Made by a program: the position numbers and the translations under genes. Below the pieces are notes generated by a model. It made no database searches. It was not told where the DNA came from and saw only the letters and a list, made by a program, of their open reading frames with translations. From Octopus vulgaris (taxonomy: Eukaryota), in NCBI GenBank assembly GCA_951406725.2, contig OX597820.1:45446001-45510000 (forward strand): a DNA stretch of 64,000 bases, read 5' to 3'. Positions 36,301-39,300 of the stretch are shown here, piece after piece; positions within the stretch are counted from its first letter, which is position 1, and the number at the start of each line of letters is the position of its first letter.

Positions 36301-39300
36301 TACGCCATAGAAACCAGAAAACCGGGCCCATGAGCCTGGCTAGGCTTTAAAAGGGCGCATTTATTATATATATATATAAATTAGAAAAAAACACCTTTTA
36401 TCAATTCAAAATGAACAATTAAATTACACCATCTAGAAAATTACATACAATAGAAATATTAGATATAAAATAACAATAATATACCGATGATTAAGTAATG
36501 TGCAAAATAATAAATAAAATATATATATCTGGTAGAATAACGACACGTGTTTCGTGGCTATATTTAAGAAATGATTATAGTAAAAATAATCATTTCTTAA
36601 ATATAGCCACGAAACACGTGTCGTTATTCTACCAGATATATATATTTTATTTATTATTTTGCACATTACTTAATCATCGGTATATTATTGTTATTTTATA
36701 TTTAATATTTCTATTATATGTAATTTTCTAGATGGTGTAATTTAATTGTTCATTTTGAATTGCTAAAAGGTGTTTTTTTTTCTAATTTTTATATATATAT
36801 TATATTTTGTGAAATTTGATTTAGTATTTCTAAATTGAATTTTTCCCTGTAAGTTAGGAATAATATTCCCTCAAATTATTATTATTATTATTATTATTAT
36901 TATTATTATTATTATTATTATTATTATTATTATTATTATTATTATATATATATGTGTGTGTGTGTGTGTCTGTGTGGAGGCGCGTGGCTTAGTGGTTAGG
37001 GTGTCAGTATCCTAATCGTAAGATTGTGGTTTCGATTCCTGGACCGGGCGTCGCGTTGTGTTCTTGAGCAAAACACTTCATTTCACGTTGATCCAGTTCA
37101 CTCAGCTGGCAAAAATGGGTAACGCTGCGATAGACTGGCGTTCCGTCCAGCTGAGGAACACATACGCCATAGAAACCGGGAAATCGGGCCCATGAGCATG
37201 GCTAGGCTTTAAAAGGGCGCATTTATTATCATTTATTTACAAGAAGTTCAAAGGGTGGTAGAGAGGATTGTAAAACGATGAGAGGCGTGTGAGAGACAGA
37301 GATGTCAGAACATCAAGACTGGGTGAGAAAATTCGCAATTCTCTGGATGGAGACCGTCTTGTGTGTCAATAAAGACAATAAGCATACAGTTTGGTGTTGG
37401 TGTGGCAACTGTACACACAGTTATACATGCGCAAAATTTGTGCAAAGTTTATTCCCAGGGTTGGTGACAGTAGGGAGATGGTCGGTCTCGTTACCTCCCA
37501 TCCAAGAGTACTTGAATCTCTGGTGATCTGTGACGAAAGTTGGATCTACTGTTATGACCCAAAGACCAACACAGAGAACGCCCAATAAAAGCATCCTGGC
37601 TCCCCAAACCCAAGAAGGCCAAGCAAAGCAAGGAAACACATGATGATCCCCTAGTTCAACAGCAAAGCATCATCTACATCCACTAGTTTCCCTCTGGCCA
37701 GAGAGTGAACAGAATTGGCCCACTCGCTTAGCTAGCAAGATGGCGTCATTCGAAGGCTAAACGATGCAAAGCGCATTGTGACTAGCAATGTGCAACAACA
37801 TCTGATAATATGGTCGGTCACGGGATCATGTGATAAATGTTTATGTTCATGAAATGGATTTCTCATGTCGTATTAAAACAATTCTAACTAGAGAATTAAA
37901 GATAAAAGTCTGGATGCCGGCATCTAAGCCGAAACTTCGAAATCACAGTTAACAGTTTCCTTGTACAAATAAATAAATATAGGACACTGCTAGAATGTAA
38001 TGAGTGATCCCTCAATTCAATATTCATCTGATATTATATGGAGCTTTACATAAAAACTGTGATGTAAAGGATCCTTCCCTACTTCACTTCCGTCCGATCC
38101 TTCCCTACAACACAGCCTGGCTCATAACACCATACTATCATCAATATATTTATATATATAACGTAAAGAAGAATCTGATAGATAGATAGATAGATAGATA
38201 GATAGATAGATAGATAGATAGATAGATAGATAGACAGACAGACAGACAGACAGACAGACAGACAGACAGACAGATAGATAGATAGATAGATAGACAGACA
38301 GACAGACAGACAGACAGACAGACAGATAGATAGATAGATAGATAGATAGATAGATAGATAGATAGATAGATAGAGAGATAGACAGACAGACAGACAGACA
38401 GACAGATAGATAGATAGATAGATAGATAGATAGATAGATAGATAGATAGACAGACAGACAGACAGATAGATAGATAGATAGATAGATAGATAGATAGATT
38501 GACAGACAGACAGACAGATAGATAGACAGACAGACAGACAGATAGATAGATAGATAGATAGACAGACAGACAGACAGACAGATAGATAGATAGATAGATA
38601 GATAGATAGATAGATAGATAGATAGATAGACAGACAGACAGACAGACAGACAGATAGATAGATAGATAGATAGATAGATAGATAGATAGATAGATAGATA
38701 GATAGATAGATAAGAGAGAGAGAGGGAGAGAGATGAAGAGAGAGATGGACAATAGGTGGTGCTTACCAATAGTTGCAAGTATAAAAACCATACAAATTGT
38801 ATTGTAAGCAGGCATTTTAAATAATGTTATGTCCAACCGTTTCATAAGTAACTTTCGCTTGGATATTTTTTCTTTATTTTCTTTAGGCTTCGGAAGAGGA
38901 TGAAGTGTCAAACCAGATAGAATTCCTAAGATCATAAGCGCTGCTTCTATCAAAGAAACAGTTCGCCATGATATTACATTGAGCAAAGCTCCAGTAATGG
39001 CTGATATTAAGAAAATCCCTATACCGGAACCGGAAGATGCAATACCAATGGCAAGGGCTCTACGTCTTTCAAAGTACTGTCCAACCACAACGACGCTGCT
39101 CACGTACATCAAAGAAAAACCAGTTCCTGTATGAAGATTCGAATAAAAACAGACACAGATGAGATAGAACGTATGGCTGGTTTGTCCAAATGTGACGTCG
39201 GTCGTTGTTGAAACAGAAATAACAACGAAAGCAACAATAACAGTGTCGTCGTCGTCATCATCATCATCATCATCATCAACATCATCATCATCATCATCAT

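What the first reader, a model, noticed from the sequence alone, without database searches (positions are those of the whole stretch)
36378..36788. Large palindrome whose axis looks like a hammerhead stem II: fold-back at the ribozyme hairpin
Seen: ~200-bp arms around a 7-nt loop. Each arm carries the 3' half of a hammerhead (ccac-GAAAC-ACGT-GTC-gttattct, palindromic stem III, GUC triplet), 25 bp from the loop. The CTGANGA half is absent and replaced by the mirror copy. The right arm continues as a single-copy tail to ...ttccctcaaattatt. Inference: the parent repeat read agaataac-CTGANGA-gtggctatattt...aaatatagccac-GAAAC, and cDNA folded back on the long stem II and self-primed. That would tie the ribozyme hairpin to the inverted terminal repeats known for PLEs. 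The 16098 motif shows long stem II hammerheads exist in this genome.
Basis: partly seen in the sequence, partly recalled or inferred. Interest (0 to 1): 0.75.

Follow-up and report, generated by a model that had tools for sequence, protein, structure and literature searches.

The report
Penelope retrotransposon ends joined head-to-head
The palindrome is two shortened end pieces of a common Penelope-type jumping gene joined head to head, a known layout; its centre inside a predicted self-cutting RNA (hammerhead) hairpin is likely incidental, but many sister copies begin right at the predicted cut, which suggests the ribozyme did cut the RNA that was copied.

Summary
The palindrome is real (arms about 98% alike, 7-nt spacer, one-sided tail). 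It is a stub of an abundant Hydra-clade Penelope-like element (PLE). Long copies carry a broken RT-GIY-YIG gene and a complete type I hammerhead. The proposed link between stem II and the inversion fails: only 2 of 71 head-to-head pairs have both inner ends in stem II, and 5' ends are not enriched there (p=0.21). The arm carrying the spacer lacks the tail, which simple fold-back cannot give. The layout (inverted 5'-truncated copy plus tail) is published, and this scan noted it before on other DNA of this genome. Unexpected result: 59 of 93 arms that reach +14 stop between -1 and +14 of the predicted hammerhead cut, about ten times the background rate, in both subfamilies. This likely records cleaved template RNA. 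A second Hydra family showed no such pile-up (0 of 30), and a transcription start at that spot is not excluded. One earlier scan note reports a similar signal in other families. Read tests of this junction were inconclusive.

The parts
36370..36585 (-). Left arm: inverted, 5'-truncated PLE end without tail; element positions about -45 to +165/180 (0 = first base after the predicted cut). Its outer end merges into a (TA)n run.
36579..36585 (-). 7-nt spacer: last bases of the left arm (mirror of the parent's stem II loop), not a separate loop
36586..36876 (+). Right arm: 5'-truncated PLE end with tail; element positions -37 to about +254; 92-94% identical over the whole arm to the 3' ends of long copies L221, L223, L227
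36586..36626 (+). 3' half of a type I hammerhead: stem II 3' strands 36588-36596 and 36599-36610, GAAAC 36611-36615, palindromic stem III, GTC 36620-36622 (predicted cut 36622|36623), stem I 3' strand 36623-36626. No CTGANGA, so predicted inactive on its own.
36538..36578 (-). Mirror copy of the same hammerhead 3' half
36805..36876 (+). Single-copy tail (about 70 nt, about 90 nt counted from the tail-less site). In tandem copy L220 it runs directly into the ORF leader. It holds a predicted splice donor at 36849-36854.
36877..36970 (.). (ATT)n, (TA)n, (TG)n microsatellite flank; no target-site duplication can be read
36112..36367 (+). Unrelated 256-nt SINE-like repeat; the left arm abuts its AT-rich 3' end
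   Evidence: D6
36974..37229 (+). Second copy of the same SINE-like repeat, 94% identical
   Evidence: D6
16098..16188 (+). Separate hammerhead-like motif with long stem II from a different family (resembles L061); not part of this insertion

Best explanation
This is one old insertion of a Hydra-clade Penelope-like retrotransposon made of two 5'-truncated copies of the element's 3' end joined head to head, one with and one without the tail; it likely arose when the element's enzyme primed reverse transcription from both sides of a cut AT-rich target and the two unfinished cDNAs were joined. Shown: family identity, the tail/no-tail layout, variable inner ends, and a pile-up of 5' ends at the predicted hammerhead cut. 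Inferred: two fixed internal RT start sites (about +165-180 and +255), one donor for both arms, joining through short homologies, and ribozyme-cut RNA as the usual template of short copies. The window copy is one of the minority made on uncut RNA and happened to stop in the stem II loop.
For: 2690 first-look candidates for the arm. ORF pieces in L220-L223 with RT and C-terminal nuclease motifs; homologs at E 1e-56 to 1e-62, nuclease part E 3e-15 to P0002; motifs fit the Hydra definition. 63 of 68 pairs are tailed plus tail-less, 5 neither, 0 both tailed; the tail-less arm reaches further 5' in 37, the tailed in 18, tie in 8; some pairs do not overlap at all (L130, L187, L232, L259); junctions overlap in 30, are blunt in 9 and have inserts in 29. 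Arms of a pair are more alike than the median unrelated copy in 34 of 41 pairs. 5'-end rate is 0.083/nt at -1..+4 and 0.056/nt at -1..+14, against 0.005 downstream and 0.008 at -30..-2, seen separately in both samples and both subfamilies (11 A, 10 B, 4 unassigned). PAc cuts and extends both target strands and has two RT start sites that define the tail (PMC11167929).
Against: Both arms share private variants (98.5% alike over 197 columns), which a hairpin intermediate explains just as well. [quoted passage not shown] The same paper found uncut RNA to be the main in vitro template and no RNA-seq reads at the cut. A second, younger Hydra family has 0 of 30 ends at its cut and 8 of 30 inside the hammerhead body (p=0.015 against upstream). 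Ends at +2, +7 and +13 are shifted by TA homology with the target (34 of 59 near-cut ends start on TA/AT against 39 of 94 elsewhere). No cleavage was assayed, and no read bridging this junction was listed.
Confidence: 0.68

Rival explanations
1. Hairpin intermediate: one cDNA folds back on a short local homology, self-primes and copies itself; the nuclease then removes the tail from one arm at integration. The fold point is not tied to stem II.
For: Shared private variants between arms. A 5-nt micro-hairpin would fit the window junction if the donor had the loop variant seen in 1 of 18 loop types. Self-priming and nuclease resolution of the tail are proposed in PMC3846280 and PMC8557442.
Against: Needs the tail removed from the first-made arm in 37 of 63 pairs, and loops of 100-200 nt in pairs whose arms do not overlap. 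Median offset between inner ends is 43.5 and 22 nt in the two samples.
Confidence: 0.2
2. One reading: the long hammerhead stem II is the fold-back site that creates PLE inverted repeats.
For: The window axis is inside the stem II loop. L033 (-31/-64) is close to stem register. The loop region has a weak, non-significant excess (8 ends, 0.010/nt, p=0.06). The second family has 6 of 30 ends between -66 and -13.
Against: 2 of 71 pairs have both ends in stem II; stem II rate 0.007 against 0.005 background, p=0.21. The window junction is out of register and lacks the parent's roughly 28-nt loop and 5' stem strand.
Confidence: 0.05
3. For the pile-up only: 5' ends mark a transcription start of an internal pLTR promoter, or RT stalling at the folded ribozyme, not cleavage. 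(Confidence is for the pile-up question, not for the palindrome.)
For: Penelope has an internal promoter (PMC2377424). An initiator-like pyrimidine-A run lies at +1..+7 and an AT box near -25 (read from the sequence; consensus recalled). The shoulder out to +14 overlaps the stem I 3' strands.
Against: The edge is sharp at the scissile bond: no end at -4..-2, then 3, 7, 3 and 9 at -1..+2 among 220 arms. The far stronger stem II stops few cDNAs. The second family has the same stem III and no pile-up, which argues against generic stalling.
Confidence: 0.35
4. Assembly fold-back artefact or a MITE-like DNA transposon.
For: Near-perfect palindrome; no bridging read was listed.
Against: Arms differ, the tail is one-sided and flanks are not mirrored. 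Most copies are not symmetrical and lead into an RT gene.
Confidence: 0.03

Closest known systems
Hydra-clade PLEs, e.g. Hydra-1_Obim (Craig et al. 2021, PMC8557442; passages, section 11, supplement rows and alignment excerpts seen)
   Same: RWK-like, DKT, GLYRDD, CxCx5C linker, CxxC..E..N..CxH motifs; C-terminal nuclease; canonical hammerhead near the 3' end; (TA)n targets.
   Different: Another family: different hammerhead, element about 5.5-6 kb with a 2.2-2.9 kb 3' non-coding region (Hydra are generally under 3 kb), stem II of 12+9 bp spanning about 77 nt against 7 bp in Hydra-1_Obim, tail 70-90 nt against 30-40. No intact ORF was found.
Inverted 5'-truncated copy plus tail of EN+ PLEs (PMC8557442 Fig. 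2 legend; PMC3846280 passages)
   Same: Head-to-head inverted ends, tail on one side only, palindromes at the junction, microsatellite targets.
   Different: Here quantified: 63 of 68 pairs have exactly one tail, and inner ends cluster at the hammerhead cut.
PAc (Poseidon, Anolis) internal RT initiation (Frangieh et al. 2024, PMC11167929; main text read, methods in part)
   Same: Two 3' end positions separated by a tail at the pLTR-ORF junction; AT-rich targets.
   Different: They found uncut RNA as main template and no reads at the cut; this family's genomic ends point to cut RNA.
PLE hammerheads (Cervera and de la Pena 2014, PMC4209133; results and discussion read)
   Same: Type I, short stem I, palindromic 2-bp stem III suited to dimers, G-C closing pair of stem II.
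   Different: Stem II is much longer than their 7-8 bp. They state that in vivo evidence of cleavage is absent.
Animal non-LTR retrozymes (PMC7229834 passages; bioRxiv 10.64898/2026.07.22.740005, part 1 of 5)
   Same: Short hammerhead-linked copies tied to PLEs.
   Different: Not a tandem 150-400 nt monomer; these are truncated ends of a coding element.

Membership tests
Hydra-clade PLE | Single ORF with RT and C-terminal GIY-YIG-type nuclease | tested here: met
   Broken ORF pieces in L220-L223; full-length homologs of 762-819 aa. Pfam gave no hit on our pieces and only sub-threshold GIY-YIG hits on 2 of 3 homologs, so the domain call rests on motifs.
Hydra-clade PLE | RWK motif, DKT in place of DKG, CxCx5C linker, CxxC and CxH around E and N | tested here: met
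   RIKWK, SDKTKN, CTCRDKSTC, CSLCNNE..N..CKH against the definition and alignment excerpts, compared by eye.
Hydra-clade PLE | Placement in the Hydra clade on an RT tree | not tested
   No reference set was available as tool sequences.
Hydra-clade PLE | Canonical hammerhead near the 3' end; (TA)n targets | tested here: met
Hydra-clade PLE | Length generally under 3 kb | tested here: not met
   L221 spans about 5.9 kb including a roughly 0.5-kb stretch missing from L220. This is a typical trait, not a strict one.
EN+ PLE inverted insertion | Inverted 5'-truncated copy next to the 5' end, tail on one end | tested here: met
   Window and 62 other pairs; full-length L221 also has one.
EN+ PLE inverted insertion | Partial tandem forming a pLTR upstream of the ORF | tested here: met
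   L220: a tail fragment runs into the ORF leader; seen in one copy.
Type I hammerhead | CUGANGA, GAAA, NUH and stems I-III (parent copies) | tested here: met
   32 aligned copies, pairs listed. They were picked by a core pattern and are too alike to show covariation.
Type I hammerhead | Complete core in the window copy | tested here: not met
   Both arms start downstream of CTGANGA.
Type I hammerhead | Self-cleavage | not testable with these tools
   Only the indirect 5'-end pile-up.
Non-LTR retrozyme | Tandem non-coding monomers, each with a hammerhead | tested here: not met
   Long copies lead into a coding region.
MITE | Fixed terminal inverted repeats shared by all copies | tested here: not met
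   Axes and arm lengths vary.

The most novel reading that the evidence does not exclude
The 5' ends of this Penelope-like family are a fossil record of hammerhead cleavage in the germline: most short copies were made from RNA cut at the ribozyme, so the hammerhead limits copy length, and one RNA is primed twice, once at each of two fixed start sites, to give the tail/no-tail inversion.
Probability: 0.55. Interest if true: 0.62.

Novelty: new member of a known kind. Interest (0 to 1): 0.4.

Why it matters
The palindrome itself is ordinary PLE debris. The by-product matters more. The role of PLE hammerheads is stated as open (PMC8557442, PMC4209133), and the one in vitro study found cleavage dispensable (PMC11167929). 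A sharp edge of 5' ends at the scissile bond would be indirect in vivo evidence that cut RNA is reverse-transcribed. It can be counted in any genome without experiments. The contrast with a second family gives a natural pair for testing what decides cleavage.

Tried and rejected
Rfam: only microsatellite and hairpin noise. A GIY-YIG search found other PLE families with intact 781-aa ORFs but not this one; tblastn with those proteins missed this family's ORF. I first took the ORF for Nematis-like from memory and dropped that. Laying contigs of six public runs (X2, X3, X4, X6, X7 as contigs; X24 as raw reads, 3% read, 0 laid) listed no record bridging the axis, but the tables are cut and the repeat is high-copy: no verdict. 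My first structure string was out of register, so one search is void; redone. ARAGORN found no tRNA in the flanking repeats. PMC5850863 is not held. Searches for a published match of PLE 5' ends to the cut gave none in the listings or the papers opened; Lunse et al. 2017 (recalled) did not appear in them, subscription papers are not covered, and of supplements only PMC8557442's was searched. Supplementary Fig. S2 of PMC11167929 was not seen and may bear on this.

Full report
Observation. The inverted repeat is there: arms 36359-36578 and 36586-36805 with 7 nt between, differing at three inner sites, a 2-nt indel and two outer sites. Each arm holds GAAAC-ACGT-GTC 25 nt from the spacer (2 matches, 0.22 expected). 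The right arm continues to 36876. The insert sits between two copies of an unrelated 256-nt repeat and abuts (TA)n and (ATT)n runs.

The parent repeat. The right arm plus tail has 2690 first-look candidates in the own genome (2.8 Gb). One more starts inside it and 7, the window included, are shorter. These loci were chosen for covering the whole arm, so they favour long copies. Stem I is 4 bp (taac with gtta) plus a weaker outer helix. Stem II is 12 bp, an internal loop, 9 bp and a 13-28 nt loop. Stem III is 2 bp with a palindromic loop. I aligned 32 of 34 pattern-picked copies, leaving out one cut off at a locus edge and one with an insertion. They are too alike to show covariation. Positions below are counted from the predicted cut (0 = first base after GUC; window 36623).

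The element. Walking upstream led through 2.2-2.9 kb of AT-rich non-coding sequence into a broken ORF in L220-L223. It has RIKWK, SDKTKN, FDISMGAPDS, GLYRDD, a CTCRDKSTC linker and a C-terminal nuclease-like part. Three unnamed 762-819 aa proteins match at E 1e-56 to 1e-62. Pfam did not recognise our pieces. The motifs match the Hydra clade of PLEs as defined in PMC8557442; no tree was built. The window arm is 92-94% identical to the 3' ends of L221, L223 and L227. In L220 the tail runs straight into the ORF leader, the partial tandem typical of PLEs. The host looks like a cephalopod; this is inference, and the paper lists a different Hydra family in Octopus bimaculoides.

Samples. Sample 1: the first 94 listed of 192 exact matches to a 34-nt pattern at the tail-less end, minus 2 duplicated loci, leaving 92. 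Sample 2: the first 70 of 491 matches to a 28-nt tail pattern, minus 3 with one shared junction, leaving 67. For pooling I dropped 4 more that are the same insertions as in sample 1. That gives 155 sampled arms plus 71 adjacent inverted partners, 226 in all. Both patterns lie at the 3' end, so they do not select on the 5' end. They come from contigs C1-C10 only. Ends were set by local alignment to natural copies and are good to a few bases. P-values assume independent insertions.

Axes are not shared. Both inner ends lie in stem II in 2 of 71 pairs (window, L033) and one end in 6 more. The stop rate in stem II is 0.007/nt against 0.005 downstream (p=0.21); the loop region alone is 0.010 (p=0.06). 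In the window the ends are -45 and -37, while stem II pairs -64 with -35. A fold on stem II would have kept the long loop and the 5' strand; neither is there. The 7-nt spacer is the mirror of parent sequence and belongs to the left, tail-less arm, so the tailed arm is not a plain copy of it.

How the inversion likely forms. Of 68 pairs (three loci were added later), 63 are one tailed plus one tail-less arm, 5 have no tail and none has two. All 26 pairs of sample 2, selected for a tail, have a partner without one. The tail-less arm goes further 5' in 37, the tailed in 18, with 8 ties. Junctions show short overlaps (30), blunt joins (9) or inserts (29). Arms of a pair are more alike than typical copies in 34 of 41 cases, so they share a donor. 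PAc protein cuts and extends both target strands and starts at two internal sites that bound the tail (PMC11167929). I therefore favour two primed cDNAs joined at their unfinished ends. A hairpin intermediate with later loss of one tail stays possible, and PAc showed no strand bias in start site. The layout itself is published.

The unexpected result. 5' ends crowd at the predicted cut: 25 of 59 arms reaching +4 stop at -1..+4, and 59 of 93 reaching +14 stop at -1..+14. The rate is 0.056/nt against 0.005 at +30..+135 (p about 1e-33) and 0.008 at -30..-2. Each sample shows it alone. Base composition is the same as in the background stretch (83% AT). Among 220 arms none ends at -4..-2, then 3, 7, 3 and 9 end at -1, 0, +1 and +2. 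Several start cleanly on the G after GUC with unrelated flanks. Both subfamilies contribute. The peaks at +2, +7 and +13 likely reflect pairing with TA targets. The simplest reading is that RT ran off RNA cut by the hammerhead.

Against that. In a second, younger Hydra family with the same stem III (1410 pattern matches, first 30 examined) no arm ends at -1..+32, and 8 end inside the hammerhead body. So the effect is not general, though this also shows it is not a generic alignment or stalling artefact. A transcription start at the same spot is not excluded (PMC2377424 shows an internal promoter in Penelope). PMC11167929 found no RNA reads at the cut in Anolis. I could not test RNA ends.

Reality of the locus. 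Read and contig laying gave no verdict. Differences between arms, the one-sided tail and unmirrored flanks argue against an assembly artefact.

Earlier notes. The scan reported such head-to-head stubs and the short-end/long-end rule on other DNA of this genome, and copies starting at a predicted cut in other hammerhead families. My reading was written before I saw them. No note covers this sequence or place.

Verdict. A new member of a known kind. The cut-site pile-up is worth a genome-wide follow-up; interest 0.40.

Noticed in passing
window 36849-36876 and L220 tail-ORF junction: A predicted intron of about 65 nt (GTAAGT donor, CTAAC branch-like site, AG) lies just before the ORF's ATG; the long 3' end falls inside it, which would mean unspliced RNA is the template, as in Penelope.
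   Followed up: partly
L046 palindrome; L268-L297: Second, young Hydra-like family (1410 exact pattern matches; matches spaced 3624 bp apart on C1 suggest tandem units) with the same tail/no-tail inversions and no 5' ends at its cut.
   Followed up: partly
L073 2245-4587 and many other loci: Intact 781-aa RT-GIY-YIG ORFs with a CX2-5CxxC linker (Neptune-like, label recalled) in many near-identical copies: a probably active PLE family.
   Followed up: no
L078 3534-3967: The 3' region of a different RT-GIY-YIG element is about 76% like the stretch just before this family's tail-less end, suggesting a shared or captured end signal.
   Followed up: no
window 16098-16188; L061 200-570: Another long-stem-II hammerhead family, palindromic in L061 with the axis well upstream of the ribozyme.
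   Followed up: partly
L045, L046, L048: The long 3' non-coding region has an internal duplication with a period of about 600-650 nt at 77-80% identity.
   Followed up: no
L221 about 5600-5800: An (AAT)n expansion inside the ORF between RT and nuclease, recalling asparagine-rich inserts described in PMC3846280.
   Followed up: no
window 36112-36367 and 36974-37229: Two direct copies of a very abundant SINE-like repeat bracket the insertion; no tRNA called.
   Followed up: no
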